Shown: in pieces, positions 3,766-62,769 of the stretch | Layout: each line of letters begins with the position of its first letter | How positions within the stretch are numbered: position 1 is the first letter of the stretch | The notes under the pieces: generated by a model | Seen by the model: only the letters and a program-made list of their open reading frames with translations | Told to the model about the DNA's origin: nothing | The model's database searches: none | Program-made: the position numbers and the translations under genes | DNA from: Escherichia coli | GTDB taxonomy: Bacteria; Pseudomonadota; Gammaproteobacteria; Enterobacterales; Enterobacteriaceae | DNA: 64,000 nucleotides | Strand: one strand, 5' to 3' | Assembly (NCBI RefSeq): GCF_030384885.1 | Contig: NZ_CP128613.1

Positions 3766-4506
3766 GTGAAGTTCAAAGTTATCGCCCTGGCGGCATTAAT
3801 GGGTATTAGCGGGATGGCAGCGCAGGCTAACGAATTGCCGGATGGACCGCATATTGTCACCTCCGGTACGGCAAGCGTGGATGCGGTGCCAGACATTGCC
3901 ACTCTTGCGATTGAAGTCAACGTGGCCGCGAAGGATGCCGCTACTGCCAAGAAACAGGCGGATGAGCGCGTCGCACAATACATTTCCTTCCTTGAACTCA
4001 ATCAGATCGCGAAAAAAGATATCAGCTCAGCGAACTTACGCACCCAGCCAGATTATGATTATCAGGATGGTAAAAGTATCCTGAAAGGCTACCGTGCTGT
4101 GAGAACGGTGGAAGTCACGCTCCGTCAGTTAGACAAACTGAATTCCTTGCTGGATGGTGCGCTGAAGGCGGGTCTTAACGAAATTCGTTCTGTATCGCTG
4201 GGCGTGGCGCAGCCGGATGCCTATAAAGACAAAGCGCGTAAGGCAGCGATTGATAACGCGATTCATCAGGCGCAGGAACTGGCGAACGGCTTTCATCGTA
4301 AACTAGGGCCGGTATATAGCGTGCGCTACCATGTTTCCAACTATCAGCCCAGCCCAATGGTGCGGATGATGAAAGCCGATGCCGCGCCGGTCTCAGCCCA
4401 GGAAACTTACGAGCAGGCTGCTATTCAGTTTGATGATCAGGTCGATGTGGTCTTCCAGTTAGAACCTGTGGATCAACAACCCGCTAAAACACCTGCCGCA
4501 CAATAA
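3766..4506 (+). CDS. yggE: YggE, periplasmic DUF541/SIMPL-family oxidative-stress protein (246 aa)
   Basis: Signal peptide MKFKVIALAALMGISGMAAQA; synteny with argO. Confidence 0.88.
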   Translation: MKFKVIALAALMGISGMAAQANELPDGPHIVTSGTASVDAVPDIATLAIEVNVAAKDAATAKKQADERVAQYISFLELNQIAKKDISSANLRTQPDYDYQDGKSILKGYRAVRTVEVTLRQLDKLNSLLDGALKAGLNEIRSVSLGVAQPDAYKDKARKAAIDNAIHQAQELANGFHRKLGPVYSVRYHVSNYQPSPMVRMMKADAAPVSAQETYEQAAIQFDDQVDVVFQLEPVDQQPAKTPAAQ

Positions 4507-47306: not shown

Positions 47307-47470
47307 CCCTTCACTCCTTTTAAAGTAAATTTGATCATCTGAATCAGTAAAATAAATTCCCACGAATTTGGGGCGCAGGACGCCTTGAGAACGGCTTATC
47401 TCATTTTCGCAGTCACTATTTAGTCATCGTTCAAACAGAGAAACAGGCCGCCGAAGCGGCCATTTATTAT

Positions 47471-50341
47471 TTATATTTTTTCCAGCGCGGTGAGTATTTT
47501 CTCCGGTGTGAAATGCCATTCGCGTAACCAGATGCCGCAGGCATCGTGAATTGCGGTAGCAATCGCCGGAGCTGCGCCATTTACACCGATTTCTGAGATT
47601 GATTTCGCCCCGAATGGGCCGACTTTATCGTCGCTCGGCACCAGCACAGCGCGGAAATCACGCGGAATGTCACCAATTTTCGGTGCGCCGTAACTGCGTA
47701 AATCACGCGTTAACGGGTGGCCTTCGGCGTCATAAATGATTTCTTCGCTCATACTGTGCCCGATAGCACGCAGGGTGGCTCCGTAGATTTGTCCCAACGC
47801 TAACTCTGGATTGACCGGTGTACCACAGTCCAGCAAGGCATAGAATTTATCCAGGCGGATTTCACCCGTACGTGTGTTGACGGCAACTTCAGCAAAGTTT
47901 GCGCCATACGGGAAGGCGAAATCAGGCGTGATATAACTGGCAGTTCCCACCAGTGAACCAAAACCGGTGCCGGTTTCGCCTTTATGGGCAATATCCCCGA
48001 AACTAACTTCGCCTTTCTTGCCGCGCACGACGCCCGGCGTTGCCAGTTGAACATCCTCCAGGGGTTCCCCCAGCATTTGTGCACCGTGGAACAGGATTTT
48101 CTCTCGGAGGTTTTCTGCCGCCATACGCGCCGCGTTGCCGGAGAAACATGTACCGGACGAGGCATATGCGCCTTTATCAAACAGCGCATGATCGGTATCA
48201 CCGGAGATAACATGCACGTCCTGCGGTGGGCAGTGCAGCACTTCTGCTGCCAGTTTCGTCACCACGGTATCCAGACCAGTACCAATATCCGCACCGCCAG
48301 AATGAACGATAAAGGTACCGTCTGATTCCAGTTTGATCATGCAGTTAGCCTGATCGATATCCGGGATCCCTGATTTCTGCATGATAATGGCGACGCCACG
48401 ACCGATGTGCCAGTCACCGTTTTGTGGTTTTGGTGAAGACCATTGGATCATCTCGCGACCCTGACGCAGGATCTCTTCCAGTGCGCAGCTGGCGGCGGAA
48501 GGAACGGAGGTCGGCGCTTTACCTTCACCGATTGCACCGAGAATTTTCAGCTCTTGCCCTTCGTGTACCCGGTTACGTTCGATAATTTCCAGTTGGTCGA
48601 TCTGTAACTGTTCAGCCAGTTCCGCTAATGCCATGGTGATAGCGAAGTTACCTTTCGGTGCGCCATAACCCTGATAAGCACCATTTGGGCAAATGTTGCT
48701 GTAGTAGGTGGTGACCTGGAAATCGACGTTATCGCACGGATATAACGGCAGCGACAGCGCCGGTCCGTTACACGGTACGGTGAGTGAGTGGTTGCCGTAA
48801 GGGCCTGTGTTGGCGCGGAAATCCATCTTCACAGCCGTCAGGCGACCATCTTTCTTTGCCCCCAGTTTGACGGTGACTTTCGCGACGTGACGGGAGGTGT
48901 TAGCAATAAACTCTTCTTCACGGGTGTAGCGGAACAGTACCGGACGCCCGGTCACGCAGGTTGCCCAAGCGCACACTTCTTCCAGCAGGATGTCCTGTTT
49001 AGACCCAAAACCGCCGCCAACTCGCTCTTTAATGACATGAACTTTATGTTGTTTCATGCCCACGAGGCGCGCGACCTGGCGGCGTAAGTGCCATGGTACC
49101 TGGGTGGAGGCGTGGATAACCAGACGATCGCCGTCCATACGGGTAAAGCAGATATGAGTTTCAGTCGGGCACTGCTGCGCCTGAGTTGAGTTATAGGTTC
49201 GCTCAATGATCACATCGGCATCGGCAAAGCCTTTATCCATATCGCCAATATGACCATGAATACTGGCGGCGATATTTTTACGAGGGCGAGAACCGATAGG
49301 GAAGTTGATAATCATATGCTCGCCGCGCTGGGCTGCATGGCTGTTATCGTCTTCCAGAGTGTCTGGCGCACCCGCCACATACACCACCGGTTCATCGTGT
49401 ACGACAGGCGCATCTTCCGCCATTGCTTCGTCGATCGACATTACAGGTTTAAGCACTTCATATTCAACGTCGATGAGCTTCAGTGCTTCGAGCGCAATTT
49501 CTTCACTTTCTGCGACGACCGCAGCAACGCGATCGCCGACGTGACGCATTTTCTTGCCGAACATACGGCGGTCAAGCGGTGACGGTTCCGGTGCGCTCTG
49601 ACCACCCGGGGTATAGTAGATATCCGGGCAATTCAGGTGAGTAATAACGTGAACGACGCCCGGTAAGGCTTCAGCTTTGCTGACATCCAGATGAGTAATC
49701 AGTGCGTGAGCGTGTGGGCTACGTAACATTTTAATGACGCAGGCGTCAGCCGTTACGCGGTCTTCAACATAGCAGGGTTTCGCCTGCACCATTTTTGCGG
49801 CATCAGTTTTAGGATAATGCTTACCAATGACTTCAAGGTCATCGCGGAAAGTCGGAGCGATATCAATGGTGGCCTGCGGGTTATTTTTACGTGCAATTGC
49901 CAGTTCAACGACCTGATAGTATTGTTGCCAGCCTGCATCGCGACTGAACAAACCAGAAAGCGCGTCGTCGATCTCTTCGCGGGTCGGTGCGGCGATACGC
50001 TCGAGCAGATCAGTGATAATCAGAGCCGCAGCTGGATCGTTATAACCAGACTGCACCACGCCAACATCAACCATGGCCTGTTGAACCAGACTTAACTCAT
50101 TCCATTTGCCCAGAGATTCTGCGGTACGAATATCTGCCTTCTCTAACTGTGCGGCAATAAGCAAGGACGCGTTAACGATATTACCGTTAAAGATTATTGC
50201 GTCAGAACCGGCAAACCCGAAGCCATCATCACTGTTGCGTACAGAGTGCATTCCCATGTTAAACAACAGCTTTTGCACGTTTTCGCCTGGATTAACGGTT
50301 AGCTCCTGAGGCGCGCCATTTAAAGTAAAGTGGATGATCAT
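47471..50341 (-). CDS. xdhD: Molybdopterin-binding xanthine-dehydrogenase-family hydroxylase XdhD (956 aa)
   Basis: N-terminal 2Fe-2S-like region plus aldehyde-oxidase/xanthine-dehydrogenase Mo-binding domains; ATGA overlap with ygfM. Confidence 0.9.
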   Translation of the reverse strand: MIIHFTLNGAPQELTVNPGENVQKLLFNMGMHSVRNSDDGFGFAGSDAIIFNGNIVNASLLIAAQLEKADIRTAESLGKWNELSLVQQAMVDVGVVQSGYNDPAAALIITDLLERIAAPTREEIDDALSGLFSRDAGWQQYYQVVELAIARKNNPQATIDIAPTFRDDLEVIGKHYPKTDAAKMVQAKPCYVEDRVTADACVIKMLRSPHAHALITHLDVSKAEALPGVVHVITHLNCPDIYYTPGGQSAPEPSPLDRRMFGKKMRHVGDRVAAVVAESEEIALEALKLIDVEYEVLKPVMSIDEAMAEDAPVVHDEPVVYVAGAPDTLEDDNSHAAQRGEHMIINFPIGSRPRKNIAASIHGHIGDMDKGFADADVIIERTYNSTQAQQCPTETHICFTRMDGDRLVIHASTQVPWHLRRQVARLVGMKQHKVHVIKERVGGGFGSKQDILLEEVCAWATCVTGRPVLFRYTREEEFIANTSRHVAKVTVKLGAKKDGRLTAVKMDFRANTGPYGNHSLTVPCNGPALSLPLYPCDNVDFQVTTYYSNICPNGAYQGYGAPKGNFAITMALAELAEQLQIDQLEIIERNRVHEGQELKILGAIGEGKAPTSVPSAASCALEEILRQGREMIQWSSPKPQNGDWHIGRGVAIIMQKSGIPDIDQANCMIKLESDGTFIVHSGGADIGTGLDTVVTKLAAEVLHCPPQDVHVISGDTDHALFDKGAYASSGTCFSGNAARMAAENLREKILFHGAQMLGEPLEDVQLATPGVVRGKKGEVSFGDIAHKGETGTGFGSLVGTASYITPDFAFPYGANFAEVAVNTRTGEIRLDKFYALLDCGTPVNPELALGQIYGATLRAIGHSMSEEIIYDAEGHPLTRDLRSYGAPKIGDIPRDFRAVLVPSDDKVGPFGAKSISEIGVNGAAPAIATAIHDACGIWLREWHFTPEKILTALEKI

Positions 50342-51117
50342 ACGGCTTCCTCCCCAGCCTGTTGGCAGTCGGCATAAAGGTCGGCTACCAGAACTCCCGT
50401 GATATAGCGTTTATAGGCCACGCTGCCCCGCAAATCTTCCTGCGGGAAAATGGCGTTGGCGACAGCCTGTTCAAGGGCATCGCCTTCCAGGTTTTGTTTT
50501 TCAACATCGTGCAGACGCAGTGCTTTACTGGCCACGCCATCCAACGCAATTCGCATACCGTCGTGATCGGTTAACGCAACGGCTGCCGTTACTACCGTTA
50601 ACCCAGCCTGAGAACGGCTAATTTTGCGAGTCGCACAGGTGCGATACGGATCTTTAATGATGATTTCGGTTAGCAGGCGATCGCATGGGCAGGCCAGGTA
50701 CTCCTCAATTGACAGAGTTTCACCGTTGCCAAAAACCAGTTCGGCATCCAGTGCCAGCAGGACGGGAAGCAGCACCGACTCTTCCTGCCGGGCGGCGATT
50801 TCACCACCAATGGTCGACTGATTACGAATATGGCGAGAGTAGACAAAGCCGAGAGCCTCACGCAGTGCTGCAGGAATAAACCGTGCATCACGCAGTGTTT
50901 GCAAGCGAGACATCGCGCCAATCCGCAATGCACCGTTATCCCAGTCAACCCAGTCCAGTTCCAGATCCTGTAAGGATATGGCAATCTTTTTATCGGTACG
51001 GGTTGGTGTGGCGTTGAGTTTACTGCCTCCGGCGAACCAGACGGCTTCATCCTGGTAGCGGCGCTTCAGTTCCAGCGCCTGTTCGACAGAGTCGGGCCTG
51101 AAAAATTGTTCAATCAT
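50338..51117 (-). CDS. ygfM: FAD-binding subunit of a molybdo-hydroxylase, YgfM (259 aa)
   Basis: CO-dehydrogenase/XdhB-type FAD-binding domain; operon position. Confidence 0.88.
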   Translation of the reverse strand: MIEQFFRPDSVEQALELKRRYQDEAVWFAGGSKLNATPTRTDKKIAISLQDLELDWVDWDNGALRIGAMSRLQTLRDARFIPAALREALGFVYSRHIRNQSTIGGEIAARQEESVLLPVLLALDAELVFGNGETLSIEEYLACPCDRLLTEIIIKDPYRTCATRKISRSQAGLTVVTAAVALTDHDGMRIALDGVASKALRLHDVEKQNLEGDALEQAVANAIFPQEDLRGSVAYKRYITGVLVADLYADCQQAGEEAV

Positions 51118-51167
51118 CTTCTTTCCTTATTTAACCCTCTTCCCTGCGGGAAGAGGGTATTTGTCAT

Positions 51168-52496
51168 TTATGCCAGCGCATCCATCCGACGCCACATAGC
51201 AGCGGCGGCTTTTTGGGCTTGCGCATAAATGGAATCGCAATCGAAGTTAAACTGACGGTCTTCATAGACCATAACGCCGTTGACCATCACGCTGTGGACG
51301 CTGCCTGAACCCATGCCGAAAGCGATATGTCCAGCGATATTGTCTGCCAGCAGTGGCGTCGGCGAGTTGTAATCGCAAATGGTTAAATCGGCTTTATAAC
51401 CGGTTTCCAGCAGGCCAAATTTCGCGCCAAAGTTGCGGCTCATCAGTTCGTTGCCGTTAGACAGAGCTTTGGCAAAGCTGTCAGGCCACAGCGGACCACC
51501 CGCATCGCGATGTTTAAAGAAGGCAAATTTCATCTCTTCAAACATATCTGAACCAATACCGTCCGTACCCAACGCCAGATTGCGGATGTCGCAAAGATGA
51601 TGGTTGTAGCCGACATGGTTGTTCATGTTTGAACGGGCGTTATGCACCAGGAATGCATCACGCTGATTGAGCAACGCGATGTCGTCTTTAGACAGATAAA
51701 GCCCATGAGCGACCAGCGTTTTGCTGTCGATGAGATCGAATTGCGCTAATCGTGCCAGCAGATCTTTGCCGTACCAGTGATGACTATGGGAAACATCGTA
51801 AAGGTCTTCCGCAGCGTGAATATGTAAACCACGGCCTGTGGCTTTCACGGCCTCACGCAGCATTTCCAGACCGGCATCCGGCACAGTAAACGGCGCGTGA
51901 GCACCAATATGAGCTTCTACCAGATACGGTTCAGTTGCCGCTTTCTTCGCATCATCAATCTGACGGGCGAAGCGGATATTTTCCTCTACTCCTTCCTGTA
52001 GTTCTTTAATGCCGTTGTTACGGTCAGTGGTTTCAAAACAGGTCATCGCACGCAAGCCAACTTTTAAAAATGCGTTGCGCAATGTGGAGAGCGACCCGCT
52101 GATATACGCCGGAGAGGCATGGTGATCGATAACAGATGTACAGCCGCTCTTAATCGCTTCCAGTGAACAAATCAGCCCGCTGTAATAGAGCGACTCTTCA
52201 TCAAGGGCGCGATCGAGCCGCCACCAGAGATTTTTCAGCGTTGAAATGAAATCCGGGCAGGGGGCGATGTTTGCCATAATTCCACGGGAAAGCCCCGAGT
52301 AAAAATGGTTGTGCGAGCAGACAATTCCCGGCATCACAATCCGACCATGCATCTCTTTGTAGTTGGCATCGGGGTAGCGTTGCGTCAGCGCATCGCCGAT
52401 AGCGACAATCACATCATTTTCGATGGCGATATCAACGCCTTCCTGCACTTTCGCCGGGTGTAACTGCACTGCGGTGACATTCTTCAGAATCAACAT
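51168..52496 (-). CDS. ssnA: Putative aminohydrolase SsnA (chlorohydrolase/cytosine-deaminase-like, 442 aa)
   Basis: Amidohydrolase metal-binding motif (GIVCSHNHFYS...) and fold. Confidence 0.88.
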   Translation of the reverse strand: MLILKNVTAVQLHPAKVQEGVDIAIENDVIVAIGDALTQRYPDANYKEMHGRIVMPGIVCSHNHFYSGLSRGIMANIAPCPDFISTLKNLWWRLDRALDEESLYYSGLICSLEAIKSGCTSVIDHHASPAYISGSLSTLRNAFLKVGLRAMTCFETTDRNNGIKELQEGVEENIRFARQIDDAKKAATEPYLVEAHIGAHAPFTVPDAGLEMLREAVKATGRGLHIHAAEDLYDVSHSHHWYGKDLLARLAQFDLIDSKTLVAHGLYLSKDDIALLNQRDAFLVHNARSNMNNHVGYNHHLCDIRNLALGTDGIGSDMFEEMKFAFFKHRDAGGPLWPDSFAKALSNGNELMSRNFGAKFGLLETGYKADLTICDYNSPTPLLADNIAGHIAFGMGSGSVHSVMVNGVMVYEDRQFNFDCDSIYAQAQKAAAAMWRRMDALA

Positions 52497-52498
52497 GA

Positions 52499-55400
52499 TT
52501 ACACCTCCACGCGGCCCAGCAGATAATGATGATGCTGGTGGACATGGCTAATGATGCGGCACATATCGTTCAGCTCCGGTGGTACGTTGTTGAACTGACC
52601 TTCGCTGTCGATGTTTAACACCCAGCTTTGGTTATTCAGACGTATGCGTACCTGGCAATCTTCCACAAGGAAGCCTGGGTTGCTGCTGTTATCAAAGTCT
52701 TGCGACAGGCTGAATACGGTGATTTTGTCTTTATATGGTTTACCGTTCCACGGGCAGAACTGGGCGCAGTTGCCGCATTCGTTACAGTAAGCGTCGAGGT
52801 GCAGCGTCTGGAAACGGTTCTGGAATCCAGGGACCGCAATTGAGACATTGGCGCGGTTAGGGCAGACATCCACACACTTGCTGCAAACGTAGTTACATTC
52901 AAGACAGCGAGAAGCTTCCTGAGCGACAAACGCATCACGATCGTCGCTGTTCACCAGGGTGACTGAGATATCGCCTTTACGTTGGTAGATTTCCGCCGGA
53001 TTGACGTTGTTCCAGTATTTATCGTTCTGGTGGGAACGGATATTTTCCCGACTAAGGATGGCATCGGTCGCCCGACGCGCGGTTCCGACAGCAGCGACAA
53101 TGGAGGATGGTCCGCGCTGTACGTCGCCGATCATAAAGACGTCAGTCAGACGAGTTTCGCCATTATGGTCGACGTCTGGCCAGCCGTTTTTGTCCAGCGG
53201 CACGCCCATCGCATTCAGGGCTTCAGTATCCTGCTGTTCACCAATGGCGGTGATCAGGCTGTCTACATGCAGTGTTACTGTTTCGTTGGTTTCAACCGGA
53301 CGGCGACGACCTTTCTCATCAGGTTCGCCAAGCGACATAACGCGCAAGGTTAAGGTGCCATCAGCATCGAAACGTTCCGGATTATTCAGGAAACGGAACT
53401 CCACGCCGTCGTGCAACGCTTCTTCATACTCTTCGCGCCATGCTGGCATCTCTTGCAGTGAACGACGGTAAACGACCGTTGCTTTTTCTACGCCTGGAAC
53501 GCGTAACGCCGCACGAGCGCAGTCCATTGCGGTGTTACCCGCCCCGACAACGACCACATGTTTGCCCAGCTTGAGCGCTGTGCCCTTGTTGTATTCACGC
53601 AGGAAGGGGAGTGATTTCCAGACATTTTGGTTGTCGCCCGCCAGTTTCACACCGCTATTTTTATCAGTGCCGGTGGCAATCAGAACATAGTGGAAGCCCT
53701 GATTTTTTAACTGTTCAACGGTCAGATCGGGTGAGCAGCCATACTCAAATTTCACGCCGTGAGCGGCAACAAAATCGATATCGTGCTGAATTAACTCTGC
53801 AGGAATACGGAACTGAGGAATGATATTTTTCACCACGCCGCCCGCATTGGCTTCGCGTTCAAACAGCGTAACCGGATGGCCCGCTCTGGCAAGGAAGTAA
53901 CCTGCTGCCAGACCCGCCGGACCTGCACCAATCACGGCAACTGGATGGCGTGAACCAGAACCGGCTGGTTTGTGCCAGCGTTGCTTATATTCATCCCAAC
54001 CTTTTTCCAGCGCGACTTTTTTCAGTTCGCGGATATTCAGCGCACTGTCGTAATCCAGGCGGGTACAGTTGTATTGGCACTGGTGATCGCAAATATGACC
54101 GGTAATGGCGGGCAGGGCGTTGCGTTGGTAGATGAGTTCCAGTGCGTCGGCATAGCGGTGTTCGCCAAGCAGACGTATGTATTCCGGAATATCCTGTTTA
54201 ATGGCGCAAGCAGTAACGCACGGTGCAACGTAGCAGTCGGTCAGCGGCAGGTCTTCTGCCACTTCAATACGCTCTTCTGGCTTCCAGTGTTTCTGAGTGT
54301 ATTCCATGGTTAACGCGTCTGCTGCCAGTTTGTTCAGTCGTTCGACGTCAACATGGTCAAGCCCCCAGGCGTCGGAGCCTTCCAGCTCGCGCATGCAGGC
54401 ACTTAAGCGCAGATAGCCGCCAGGTTTCAGCAGGTCGGTTGCCATAGTAATAGGGCGAATACCAGTATCAAAAATATCGCGGATAGTCAGCTGACTGGCA
54501 CCACCGGAATAAGAAATGGGCAGTTTGCCGTCAAAGGCGCGAGAGAGAACTGCTGCAACATTGATGGAGAGCGGGAACAGCGCACGGCCTGACATATACA
54601 TCTCTTCACCAGGCAGTGCGCCTTTATTGTTGATGGTGCCGAGAGTGTTAGTCAGTTTTACGCCAAAGCCGAGTGATTTTTCTTTTGCCAGTACCATCAG
54701 GCGTTCCAGCATTTCCAGCGCTTGCGTCAGCTTGAGGTCGTGATCAAATGACTCTTCTTTTAAGCCTATGTAACCGAAACCGCAGACATCGAGGATCTCA
54801 CGAACACGCGCGTACCCCAGTAAGGTCGGGTTGAGTTTCACAAAGGTATTGAGCCCTTTTTCTTCCAGCATGTAGCGGCAAATGGCTTCGATTTCATGCG
54901 GAGGACAGCCGTGCATCGTGGAGAGGGTAACGCCTTGTACCATGCTGGTGGGGATGCGTGCCGGTAAGGCCTGCAAGCATTCGCGTTTTTCCTGTAAGCC
55001 GTGGCGGGCTAAAAATGCGTCATCCTGGAGTAATTCATTCAGCGTATCGCGATATTGAGCGAATTTCGGATGGTCAGATGCGTCCATCATATTGTCGATG
55101 AACTGTTGCATCGGCGGTTGCTTAATACCTTCGAGGTTGTAACCGACGCTCATATTAAAGATGAACGATTTACCGGAATCAGAAGGCTGGAACATCGCTT
55201 CGAGAAGGTGCAGGGCAAACCAGGCTTTGAGGTATTCATCCCAGGCTTTAAGCAGGGTAAATTCGGTGGACCATTCGGTGTTAAAGCACTCGTCTTCGGC
55301 ATCAATACAGGGCTTTTCCAGCTCCAGGCGGTCAAGAATTTGGACGGTTTTTAGTTCGATGAAGCGTCCGCCAGTCAGCCAGGATGTGACAATATTTTGC

Positions 55401-55597
55401 GCGAGCTGCGTGTGCGGACCAGCGGCAGGGCCGACGGGAGTGGCACAGGTTTCACCGAAGACGCTAATAGTTTTACCTTTTACGGGTGAGTAAAACTGTT
55501 GCTCGGGAATACCAAAGATTGAGCGTTGTTGTTGGTATTCATCAAATATGCGCGTCAAAAGTTCCTCAAACGGAATGGGACGCATAATATCCCCCAT
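52499..55597 (-). CDS. ygfK: Large Fe-S/flavin oxidoreductase YgfK (GltD-like plus dihydropyrimidine-dehydrogenase-like and ferredoxin domains; putative selenate-reductase-associated, 1032 aa)
   Basis: 1032-aa ORF with pyridine-nucleotide disulfide-oxidoreductase GxGxxG motifs ([14 protein letters not shown]) and C-terminal Cys clusters. Confidence 0.88.
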   Translation of the reverse strand: MGDIMRPIPFEELLTRIFDEYQQQRSIFGIPEQQFYSPVKGKTISVFGETCATPVGPAAGPHTQLAQNIVTSWLTGGRFIELKTVQILDRLELEKPCIDAEDECFNTEWSTEFTLLKAWDEYLKAWFALHLLEAMFQPSDSGKSFIFNMSVGYNLEGIKQPPMQQFIDNMMDASDHPKFAQYRDTLNELLQDDAFLARHGLQEKRECLQALPARIPTSMVQGVTLSTMHGCPPHEIEAICRYMLEEKGLNTFVKLNPTLLGYARVREILDVCGFGYIGLKEESFDHDLKLTQALEMLERLMVLAKEKSLGFGVKLTNTLGTINNKGALPGEEMYMSGRALFPLSINVAAVLSRAFDGKLPISYSGGASQLTIRDIFDTGIRPITMATDLLKPGGYLRLSACMRELEGSDAWGLDHVDVERLNKLAADALTMEYTQKHWKPEERIEVAEDLPLTDCYVAPCVTACAIKQDIPEYIRLLGEHRYADALELIYQRNALPAITGHICDHQCQYNCTRLDYDSALNIRELKKVALEKGWDEYKQRWHKPAGSGSRHPVAVIGAGPAGLAAGYFLARAGHPVTLFEREANAGGVVKNIIPQFRIPAELIQHDIDFVAAHGVKFEYGCSPDLTVEQLKNQGFHYVLIATGTDKNSGVKLAGDNQNVWKSLPFLREYNKGTALKLGKHVVVVGAGNTAMDCARAALRVPGVEKATVVYRRSLQEMPAWREEYEEALHDGVEFRFLNNPERFDADGTLTLRVMSLGEPDEKGRRRPVETNETVTLHVDSLITAIGEQQDTEALNAMGVPLDKNGWPDVDHNGETRLTDVFMIGDVQRGPSSIVAAVGTARRATDAILSRENIRSHQNDKYWNNVNPAEIYQRKGDISVTLVNSDDRDAFVAQEASRCLECNYVCSKCVDVCPNRANVSIAVPGFQNRFQTLHLDAYCNECGNCAQFCPWNGKPYKDKITVFSLSQDFDNSSNPGFLVEDCQVRIRLNNQSWVLNIDSEGQFNNVPPELNDMCRIISHVHQHHHYLLGRVEV

Positions 55598-61448: not shown

Positions 61449-61500
61449 AGCAAACTCCAAAAACCCTCCGGCGAACCGGAGGGGAATAAGTTAAGAATAA

Positions 61501-62712: not shown

Positions 62713-62769
62713 TATTTTTCTCCAGATTTTTTACTCCCCGTTTGGCGGGGAGCAGTTCCAATAGGGTGA

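What the first reader, a model, noticed from the sequence alone, without database searches (positions are those of the whole stretch)
51118..51167. Strong hairpin in the ygfM-ssnA intercistronic gap
A CCCTCTTCCC TGCG GGAAGAGGG perfect 10-bp stem sits between two genes of one operon, on the transcribed strand. It could be an internal attenuator or an RNase-protective element setting differential expression of upstream and downstream genes.
Basis: seen in the sequence. Interest (0 to 1): 0.2.

Follow-up and report, generated by a model that had tools for sequence, protein, structure and literature searches.

The report
Conserved hairpin between ssnA and ygfM
A strong RNA hairpin really does sit in the 50-base gap between two genes of the E. 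coli uric-acid-degradation operon and is kept by evolution, but it lacks a terminator's U tail and most likely belongs to the ordinary class of nuclease-blocking hairpins that tune operon mRNA stability.

Summary
The hairpin is real. It lies at window 51134-51158 and has 10 perfect pairs plus an A-U pair and a 3-nt loop (about -19.5 kcal/mol; z -5.2 against shuffles). It sits in the 50-nt ssnA-ygfM gap of a minus-strand operon, ygfK-ssnA-ygfM-xdhD, which belongs to the reductive uric-acid pathway.

It occurs once per genome and has no Rfam match. The same place holds a hairpin of similar strength in Escherichia, Citrobacter, Atlantibacter, Trabulsiella and Pluralibacter, although the arm sequences differ. 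In a hand-registered alignment all nine core pairs show compensatory double changes. In five of six Escherichia-group comparisons the gap is several-fold more conserved than synonymous sites.

The stem always starts 6-9 nt after the ssnA stop codon and ends 15-18 nt before the ygfM AUG, so the Shine-Dalgarno sequence stays free. Only 0-3 U occur in the 8 nt after the stem on the mRNA strand, so it is not a canonical intrinsic terminator.

My best reading, at moderate confidence, is a protective stem-loop without a U tract, of the malE-malF / Dar-Sorek kind. It would separate two translationally coupled gene pairs and give them different mRNA stability. No transcript-end data exist for this poorly expressed operon. 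Interest is low: a new member of a known kind.

The parts
51134..51158 (-). The stem-loop: 11 bp (10 perfect pairs plus A-U) with triloop GCA on the mRNA. The mRNA 5' arm is the complement of 51148-51158, the loop is 51145-51147, and the 3' arm is the complement of 51134-51144.
51168..51170 (-). ssnA stop codon UAA. Nine unpaired nt (51159-51167) separate it from the base of the stem.
51124..51128 (-). ygfM Shine-Dalgarno AAGGA. It lies 5 nt after the stem and 6 nt before the AUG, and is unpaired in the MFE and centroid structures.
51115..51117 (-). ygfM start codon AUG, 16 nt after the last paired base.
51168..55597 (-). Upstream module ygfK (52499-55597) and ssnA (51168-52496), separated by only 2 nt and so likely translationally coupled. 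Together the two enzymes convert yanthine.
   Evidence: PMC12507026
47471..51117 (-). Downstream module ygfM (50338-51117) and xdhD (47471-50341), which overlap by 4 nt. They encode the XdhD-YgfM uric-acid reductase complex.
   Evidence: PMC12507026

Best explanation
This is a selected mRNA stem-loop without a U tract in the only sizeable untranslated gap of the ygfK-ssnA-ygfM-xdhD transcript. ygfK/ssnA are 2 nt apart and ygfM/xdhD overlap by 4 nt, so the hairpin marks the boundary between two translationally coupled enzyme modules.

Most likely mechanism (inferred, not shown): it acts after transcription as a nuclease-resistant barrier. After an endonucleolytic cut in the downstream segment, 3'-to-5' exonucleases (PNPase, RNase II) stall at the stem. 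The ygfK-ssnA segment would then outlive ygfM-xdhD, as in the malE-malF type. If instead the cut falls in the 9 nt upstream of the stem, the hairpin becomes a protective 5' end for ygfM-xdhD, as in the papBA type. Either way it would uncouple the mRNA levels of the two modules.

The stem starts 6-9 nt past the stop codon, so by my estimate of the ribosome's reach a terminating ribosome stops just short of it and it stays folded. It ends 15-18 nt before the AUG, which leaves the ygfM ribosome-binding site free.
For: Shown:
- The hairpin is real and far stronger than chance.
- It is single-copy in all 3977 matching E. coli genomes.
- A hairpin of -12.6 to -19.7 kcal/mol occupies the same place in every ssnA-ygfM gap examined except Klebsiella indica, although the arms differ: CCCUCUUCCC, CCCUCUCCU, CGCCUCCCG, CCUCCCCGC, UCUCCCCC.
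- Within the Escherichia group, 93.8% of cells pair and 3 pairs carry double changes.
- In a hand-registered cross-genus alignment, 96.5% of cells pair against 74% in shuffles (0 of 2000 reach the observed value), and 9 of 9 pairs have a double change.
- Within clades, substitutions fall in the loop and flanks while the stems stay intact.
- The gap is more conserved than 4-fold synonymous sites: window vs K-12, 2/50 against 48/222.
- The mRNA-strand tail has 0-3 U in 8 nt.
- No promoter-like site lies near the gap on the gene strand. The sigma-54 site mapped for this gene group lies upstream of ygfK (PMC4591121). All four genes are in the YgeV iModulon.

From the literature:
- Stable hairpins not followed by U tracts sit at the 3' ends of stabilised operon segments in 26 of 34 E. 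coli cases, and are usually conserved (PMC5927463).
- 5' hairpins generated by RNase E stabilise downstream segments.
- U-less stem-loops protect against PNPase and RNase II (PMC6061677).
Against: - There is no direct evidence of a 3' or 5' RNA end at the hairpin, or of unequal ssnA and ygfM mRNA or protein levels. The only 3' end listed for these genes in the Adams et al. term-seq tables is inside xdhD at K-12 3022649, with none near 30205xx. The operon is poorly expressed under laboratory conditions, so this absence is uninformative.
- Klebsiella indica has no strong hairpin (-8 to -9 kcal/mol), and Citrobacter MGH106 carries an internal mismatch (-12.6 to -13.4). The element is therefore dispensable in some lineages.
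- Folding energies do not favour the mRNA strand over the antisense strand.
- Most protective hairpins in the Dar-Sorek set (17 of 26) lie inside the downstream ORF rather than in a gap.
- The cross-genus pair count rests on an alignment I registered by hand on each sequence's own hairpin.
Confidence: 0.4

Rival explanations
1. Translational insulator or organiser of the ygfM initiation region. The folded stem would block sliding or re-initiation by ribosomes that terminate at ssnA. It would also keep the purine-rich ygfM ribosome-binding site from pairing with upstream pyrimidine-rich sequence. ygfM-xdhD would then be translated by independent initiation at a rate set apart from ygfK-ssnA.
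For: The distance from stem to AUG is tightly kept at 15-18 nt, and the Shine-Dalgarno sequence is always single-stranded 5-7 nt after the stem. The stem starts 6-9 nt after the stop codon. By my estimate from what is known of the ribosome's reach, that is just beyond what a terminating ribosome unwinds. This is the only junction in the four-gene cluster that is not of the overlap/2-nt coupling type.
Against: There are no translation data. The Shine-Dalgarno sequence and AUG are not part of the structure in Escherichia, so there is no masking or unmasking switch of the atpHA type. The short outer helices that touch the Shine-Dalgarno sequence in Atlantibacter and Trabulsiella are only 2-4 bp and are not conserved.
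Confidence: 0.2
2. Weak intrinsic terminator or attenuator on the mRNA strand. A fraction of polymerases would stop after ssnA, lowering ygfM-xdhD transcription.
For: The stem is GC-rich and 11 bp long. In Escherichia the 8 nt after it (UAAAUAAG, or UUAAAUAA after the 10-bp core) are mostly or entirely A/U, which would give a weak RNA-DNA hybrid. The four other perfect hairpins of at least 10 bp in the window all lie at transcription-unit ends.
Against: There is no U tract: 2 of 8 in Escherichia and 0 of 8 in Atlantibacter, Trabulsiella and Pluralibacter, where the hairpin is equally well kept. The terminator scan does not call it on the gene strand. No 3' end is listed there in the published term-seq tables.
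Confidence: 0.12
3. A relic with little or no present function, for example the decayed terminator of a once-separate ygfK-ssnA unit. The stem would persist by inertia or weak selection.
For: ygfM-xdhD occurs without ssnA upstream in Kluyvera and Photobacterium, so the two modules are separable. K. indica and Citrobacter MGH106 have weakened stems.
Against: Compensatory double changes occur at all 9 core pairs across genera. Stems stay intact while loops vary within clades. The gap is 3-5 times more conserved than synonymous sites in most comparisons.
Confidence: 0.12
4. Terminator for antisense transcription. On the + strand the same stem is followed by AUUUGUCAUU and would stop RNA polymerases that run against the operon.
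For: The + strand is the only strand on which the consensus scan calls a terminator. In the window, 4 of the first 8 tail bases are U.
Against: The antisense tail has 3 U of 8 in K-12 and 1-3 of 8 in other genera. Much of it is simply the complement of the stop codon and the last ssnA codons. No antisense promoter or transcript is documented, and the + strand promoter-like hits are at chance level.
Confidence: 0.05
5. A translated relay mini-ORF. In most Escherichia, an AUG directly follows the ssnA UAA (UAAAUG), and 17 codons later a UGA overlaps the ygfM AUG (AUGA). Ribosomes would be handed from ssnA through the hairpin to ygfM.
For: Both junctions are of the classic coupling type, and the frame is open in the window, K-12, EcN, E69, E. 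whittamii, E1V33 and Citrobacter MGH106.
Against: The start codon is ATA in strains 2022H048 and R12. The frame is broken by the 1-nt deletion in O157:H7. There is no AUG or equivalent ORF in Citrobacter R56, Atlantibacter, Trabulsiella or Pluralibacter, which all keep the hairpin. I saw no clear Shine-Dalgarno sequence upstream of the mini-ORF AUG by eye.
Confidence: 0.05
6. A DNA-level palindrome bound by a dimeric regulator.
For: It is a perfect 10-bp inverted repeat with a 3-bp spacer. Folding energies do not favour one strand.
Against: The arm sequences change almost completely between genera while complementarity is kept. That is the signature of a structure, not of a sequence-specific protein site. 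Loop (spacer) length varies from 3 to 5. The site is inside an operon, 16 nt from a start codon.
Confidence: 0.03

Closest known systems
[quoted passage not shown]
   Same: It is an energetically stable stem-loop, not followed by a U tract, inside a polycistronic unit and just after a stop codon. The structure is conserved across enterobacterial genera.
   Different: No 3' end, half-life difference or exonuclease dependence has been measured here. It lies in an intergenic gap, whereas 17 of 26 of the catalogued cases lie inside the next ORF. It is not a REP element, unlike the malE-malF structure (that the malE-malF structure is a REP is from my own knowledge).
papBA-type 5' protective hairpin generated by RNase E cleavage (described in PMC5927463)
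   Same: The hairpin lies in an intercistronic region immediately upstream of the downstream gene's ribosome-binding site, with an A/U-rich single-stranded stretch (AUGACAAAU) just 5' of it.
   Different: No RN|WUU RNase E motif is visible in the 9 nt upstream of the stem in most alleles, and no cleavage data exist.
Rho-independent (intrinsic) terminator
   Same: GC-rich stem of 10-11 bp with a short loop, downstream of a stop codon.
   Different: It lacks the U tract on the mRNA strand, with 0-3 U in 8 nt across genera. The next gene's start codon follows 16 nt later, and no promoter-like site was found near the gap on the gene strand.
REP/BIME intergenic palindromes of E. coli
   Same: A stable intergenic palindrome inside an operon, with possible mRNA-stabilising activity.
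   Different: It is single-copy in every genome that carries it and I see no resemblance to the REP consensus as I recall it. Its arms are polypyrimidine/polypurine.

Membership tests
Protective operon hairpin (Dar-Sorek / malE-malF type) | Energetically stable stem-loop, more stable than the genomic background | tested here: met
   -19.4 to -19.9 kcal/mol, z -5.2, 0 of 200 shuffles as good. It is one of 5 perfect stems of at least 10 bp in 64 kb.
Protective operon hairpin (Dar-Sorek / malE-malF type) | Not followed by a uridine tract | tested here: met
   The mRNA-strand tail has 2 U in 8 nt in Escherichia and 0-3 in other genera. The scan does not call a terminator on the gene strand.
Protective operon hairpin (Dar-Sorek / malE-malF type) | Lies inside a polycistronic transcript, between segments | tested here: inconclusive
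   The geometry fits: a 50-nt gap, the same strand, no promoter-like site near the gap, the mapped sigma-54 site upstream of ygfK, and shared membership of the YgeV iModulon. Co-transcription across the gap was not measured.
Protective operon hairpin (Dar-Sorek / malE-malF type) | A steady-state RNA 3' end maps immediately downstream of the stem | tested here: inconclusive
   No 3' end near K-12 30205xx appears in the held term-seq supplements. The operon is barely expressed in those conditions, and some supplements are not held.
Protective operon hairpin (Dar-Sorek / malE-malF type) | Flanking genes differ in mRNA half-life or abundance, dependent on PNPase/RNase II | not testable with these tools
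   This needs rifampicin-chase RNA-seq in wild type and pnp/rnb mutants under inducing conditions.
Protective operon hairpin (Dar-Sorek / malE-malF type) | Structure conserved in related species | tested here: met
   A hairpin is present at the same place in 5 genera, with compensatory changes.
Intrinsic terminator | U-rich tract directly after the stem on the transcribed strand | tested here: not met
REP/BIME repeat | Many dispersed copies per genome | tested here: not met
   One place per genome in 3977-3978 genomes, using both megablast and blastn word-11 searches. It is also unique in the window.
Bacterial SECIS element | Hairpin shortly downstream of an in-frame UGA | tested here: not met
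   The ssnA stop codon is UAA or UAG in every ortholog. This was considered only because the cluster is linked to selenium-dependent molybdenum hydroxylases (PMC2276186, listed).
Translational-coupling switch (atpHA type) | The downstream Shine-Dalgarno sequence or start codon is sequestered in the structure | tested here: not met
   The Shine-Dalgarno sequence and AUG are unpaired in the MFE and centroid structures of all Escherichia sequences.
Any curated RNA family (Rfam 15) | Match to a covariance model | tested here: not met
   Nothing at the site even at E <= 10.

The most novel reading that the evidence does not exclude
The hairpin could be one element of a coordinated post-transcriptional 'punctuation' of the YgeV/sigma-54 uric-acid regulon. 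Three of the four roughly 50-nt gaps in the sister operon ygeW-ygeX-ygeY-hyuA-yqeA also carry strong hairpins, one of them with similar CCUCC/GGAGG arms. In Escherichia this hairpin is additionally embedded in a stop-start/start-stop relay mini-ORF. Together these features would set the stoichiometry of the pathway's enzyme modules.
Probability: 0.07. Interest if true: 0.4.

Novelty: new member of a known kind. Interest (0 to 1): 0.15.

Why it matters
The operon encodes the recently worked-out anaerobic uric-acid (2,8-dioxopurine/yanthine) pathway of gut bacteria. That pathway is being engineered into E. coli as a possible therapy for hyperuricaemia (PMC12507026). A conserved structure at the boundary between the YgfK-SsnA and YgfM-XdhD modules is a plausible control point for their relative expression, and should be kept or deliberately altered when the cluster is refactored. 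Beyond that, it is one more example of a common, already described way of tuning operons.

Tried and rejected
- Rfam scan of 13 kb around the site at E <= 10: nothing at the site.
- Repeat-family idea: rejected, one copy per genome.
- SECIS idea: rejected, no UGA.
- Strand test by folding both strands of 11 orthologs: inconclusive. My early impression that G-U wobbles favour the mRNA strand did not hold up, because the antisense fold is better in Citrobacter MGH106, Trabulsiella and Pluralibacter.
- MAFFT alignments of the gap across genera put the arms out of register (A2, A5). I therefore counted cross-genus pairs in a script, on a hand-registered alignment.
- A covariance model built from the Escherichia group (R1) reached only Escherichia and Citrobacter R56, not the other genera.
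- A metagenome scan for non-Escherichia junctions returned a single locus identical to Pluralibacter.
- Published 3'-end maps gave no entry at the site, or their supplements were not held: Adams 2021, TERMITe 2025, and Dar & Sorek 2018 (two papers).
- The purine-pathway preprint 10.1101/2025.04.24.650524 contains no transcript data.
- A paper found via 'ssnA' (RIBOSS) actually refers to human SSNA1.
- The relay mini-ORF is not conserved.

Full report
**What is there.** The genes around the finding lie on the minus strand. In order they are ygfK (52499-55597), ssnA (51168-52496), ygfM (50338-51117) and xdhD (47471-50341). ygfK and ssnA are 2 nt apart, and ygfM and xdhD overlap by 4 nt. The 50-nt ssnA-ygfM gap (51118-51167) is the only real untranslated spacer in the four-gene block.

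On the mRNA the gap reads UAA AUGACAAAU A-CCCUCUUCCC-GCA-GGGAAGAGGG-U UAAAUAAGGAAAGAAG AUG. The hairpin occupies 51134-51158. It has ten perfect pairs plus an A-U pair and a triloop.

**Is it more than chance?**
- The 56-nt stop-to-start segment folds at -19.9 kcal/mol, against -8.0 +/- 2.3 for dinucleotide shuffles (z -5.2).
- The pattern is unique in the window, with zero expected.
- The whole 64-kb window has only five distinct perfect stems of at least 10 bp with loops of 3-8 nt. They are listed as 8 entries, against a mean of 0.6 entries in shuffles.
- The other four all sit at ends of transcription units.
- Hairpins as such are common in E. coli intergenic DNA. What is unusual here is only the position, between co-directional genes 50 nt apart.

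**Identity and context.** The window is E. coli. It is near-identical to strain 2013C-4282, apart from a few 1-nt indels elsewhere in the window. K-12 MG1655 has the same hairpin at about 3020499-3020523. RefSeq annotates nothing in the gap, and Rfam has no match.

The cluster encodes the reductive uric-acid pathway. XdhD-YgfM form a complex that reduces urate to yanthine, and YgfK and SsnA act together on yanthine (PMC12507026). A sigma-54 binding site was mapped by ChIP-seq upstream of ygfK (PMC4591121). All four genes belong to the YgeV iModulon (PMC12133099). No promoter-like site lies near the gap on the gene strand. The hairpin therefore sits at the border between two functional, translationally coupled gene pairs of what is most likely one transcript. 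Co-transcription is inferred, not measured.

**Comparative evidence.** The hairpin is single-copy in all 3977-3978 E. coli genomes that match, so it is not a REP-like repeat.

Within E. coli, variation falls in three places:
- the loop (GCA to GUA in one strain);
- the flanks;
- paired positions, where both sides change together. In the B2-type allele the second pair from the loop goes from C-G to U-A, the loop-closing pair becomes a U-G wobble, and the basal pair goes from A-U or G-U to C-G.

O157:H7 has a 1-nt deletion that converts the hairpin to 9 bp plus the closing G-U pair, with a tetraloop.

A scan of one genome per species recovered 20 ygfM loci. Wherever ssnA lies upstream, the gap is 45-50 nt. 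All of these except Klebsiella indica hold a hairpin of -12.6 to -19.7 kcal/mol at the same place, with different arm sequences:
- Escherichia: CCCUCUUCCC
- Citrobacter R56: CCCUCUCCU
- Atlantibacter and C. freundii M21: CGCCUCCCG
- Trabulsiella: CCUCCCCGC
- Pluralibacter: UCUCCCCC

In the Atlantibacter group and in Trabulsiella, the loops and tails differ between species while the stems are identical.

On the unambiguous Escherichia-group alignment, 93.8% of cells pair, three pairs carry double changes, and sliding the partner columns drops pairing to 54-75%.

MAFFT and a covariance model could not put the distant genera in register. I therefore registered a 9-bp core by hand, anchored on the distance to the ygfM AUG. 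On that alignment 96.5% of cells pair, against 74% after shuffling partners (0 of 2000 shuffles reach the observed value), and all nine pairs show a double change. This alignment leans towards the structure, and I treat it as supporting evidence, not proof.

The gap as a whole is also more conserved than 4-fold synonymous sites of the flanking genes:

| Comparison with the window | Differences in the gap | Differences at 4-fold sites |
|---|---|---|
| K-12 | 2/50 | 48/222 |
| E69, E. whittamii, E1V33 | 4/50 each | about 30% |
| Citrobacter MGH106 | 10/50 | 45% |
| B2-type allele (strain 2022H048) | 12/50 | 43/220 |

The B2-type allele is the one exception, with no excess conservation.

**What it is not.**
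- It is not a canonical intrinsic terminator on the mRNA strand. The eight bases after the stem contain 2 U in Escherichia and 0-3 in the other genera. The consensus scan calls a terminator only on the antisense strand, and that antisense U-richness is not conserved either.
- It is not a SECIS element, because the stop codon is UAA or UAG.
- It is not a switch that sequesters the Shine-Dalgarno sequence, which stays unpaired together with the AUG.
- Folding energies do not tell the two strands apart. The assignment to the mRNA strand rests on the direction of the genes.

**Geometry.** The stem begins 6-9 nt after the stop codon and ends 15-18 nt before the AUG in every genus. The following is my own inference from what is known of ribosome footprints and the position of the mRNA helicase, about 11 nt from the first base of the P-site codon. 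A ribosome stopped at the ssnA stop codon would reach the base of the stem without opening it. The hairpin can therefore persist on a translated message while the ygfM ribosome-binding site, 5-7 nt downstream, stays free.

**Most likely mechanism.** The closest documented class is the protective hairpin without a U tract. Dar and Sorek found stable hairpins lacking U tracts at the 3' ends of the stabilised segment in 26 of 34 differentially decaying E. coli operons. These hairpins were usually conserved in Salmonella and Enterobacter, and they act like the malE-malF structure. The same authors also described papBA-like 5' hairpins created by RNase E cleavage (PMC5927463). They further showed that such stem-loops protect against PNPase and RNase II (PMC6061677).

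The ssnA-ygfM hairpin meets the sequence-level criteria: stability, no U tract, operon-internal position and conservation. The functional criteria (a mapped RNA end, unequal half-lives) cannot be checked. The operon is essentially silent in the published datasets, and the only 3' end listed for these genes is inside xdhD.

| Reading | Confidence |
|---|---|
| Nuclease barrier | about 0.4 |
| Translational insulator | 0.2 |
| Weak sense-strand terminator | about 0.12 |
| Relic with little present function | about 0.12 |
| Antisense terminator | 0.05 |
| Translated relay mini-ORF | 0.05 |
| Protein-binding DNA palindrome | 0.03 |

That the structure itself is under selection I consider likely, at about 0.85.

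**Verdict.** This is an unannotated but ordinary member of a known kind of operon-internal RNA structure. It is of practical interest mainly to people engineering the uric-acid pathway. Interest 0.15.

Noticed in passing
window 51114-51167 (minus strand): A 17-codon mini-ORF fills the gap exactly. Its AUG directly follows the ssnA UAA (UAAAUG), and its UGA overlaps the ygfM AUG (AUGA). The product is MTNTLFPQGRGLNKERR. It is open in most Escherichia and in Citrobacter MGH106. The start codon is ATA in strains 2022H048 and R12, the frame is shifted in O157:H7, and the ORF is absent in the other genera.
   Followed up: partly
window 61464-61484 and 62732-62754 (minus strand); K-12 locus L001 4454-4510: The sister operon of the same pathway (ygeW-ygeX-ygeY-hyuA-yqeA) has gaps of 47-57 nt, and three of the four carry strong hairpins. 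The ygeY-hyuA gap has CCCCUCCGG-UUCG-CCGGAGGG followed by UUUUU, which looks like a terminator and has arms of the same CCUCC/GGAGG flavour. The ygeX-ygeY gap has UGCUCCCCG-CCAAA-CGGGGAGUA followed by AAAAAA, with no U tract. The ygeW-ygeX gap in K-12 has GGGCCGAUC-AGCU-GGUCGGCCC.
   Followed up: partly
window 50419-51866 compared with K-12 (L003): The window's ssnA/ygfM alleles are unusually divergent for E. coli: 6.9% overall and 21.6% at 4-fold sites against K-12. Only 3 of 5177 genomes are at least 99% identical over 501 nt. Yet the 91 nt around the gap are 100% identical in 358 genomes. This suggests a mosaic, recombined locus.
   Followed up: partly
L006 (E. coli O157:H7 strain 2149): In O157:H7, ssnA is annotated as a frameshifted pseudogene (1328 nt). 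The same lineage carries a 1-nt deletion in the 3' arm of the hairpin, shortening the gap to 49 nt.
   Followed up: no
L025 (NZ_JAUFQN010000014.1, 'Flavobacterium paronense' CECT 8460, 7.7-kb contig): In the 135 nt shown, this contig carries the E. coli ssnA-ygfM junction with the K-12-type gap and hairpin unchanged and one difference in the ssnA 3' end. It is almost certainly E. coli contamination of that assembly.
   Followed up: no
L023 (Trabulsiella odontotermitis strain 01), about 2440-2500: The sequence runs from a damaged hairpin (CCCCUCCCCGCCAGCCGCGGGGCGGG) straight into codon 3 of ygfM. The 3' part of the gap and the ygfM start are missing. This is either a real deletion or an assembly error; the other T. 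odontotermitis strain (L026) is intact.
   Followed up: no
L013, L014, L016 (Kluyvera) and L024, L027 (Photobacterium), upstream of position 2501: In these genera no long ORF (at least 150 codons) ends within about 200 nt upstream of ygfM, and the upstream sequence does not resemble the ssnA 3' end. The ygfM-xdhD module therefore appears to exist apart from ygfK-ssnA.
   Followed up: no
window 47446-47461: GGCCGC-UUCG-GCGGCC followed by UGUUUCUCUG lies 9 nt after the xdhD stop codon. It is the likely terminator that ends the ygfK-xdhD unit ahead of xanQ, and the scan calls it on both strands.
   Followed up: no
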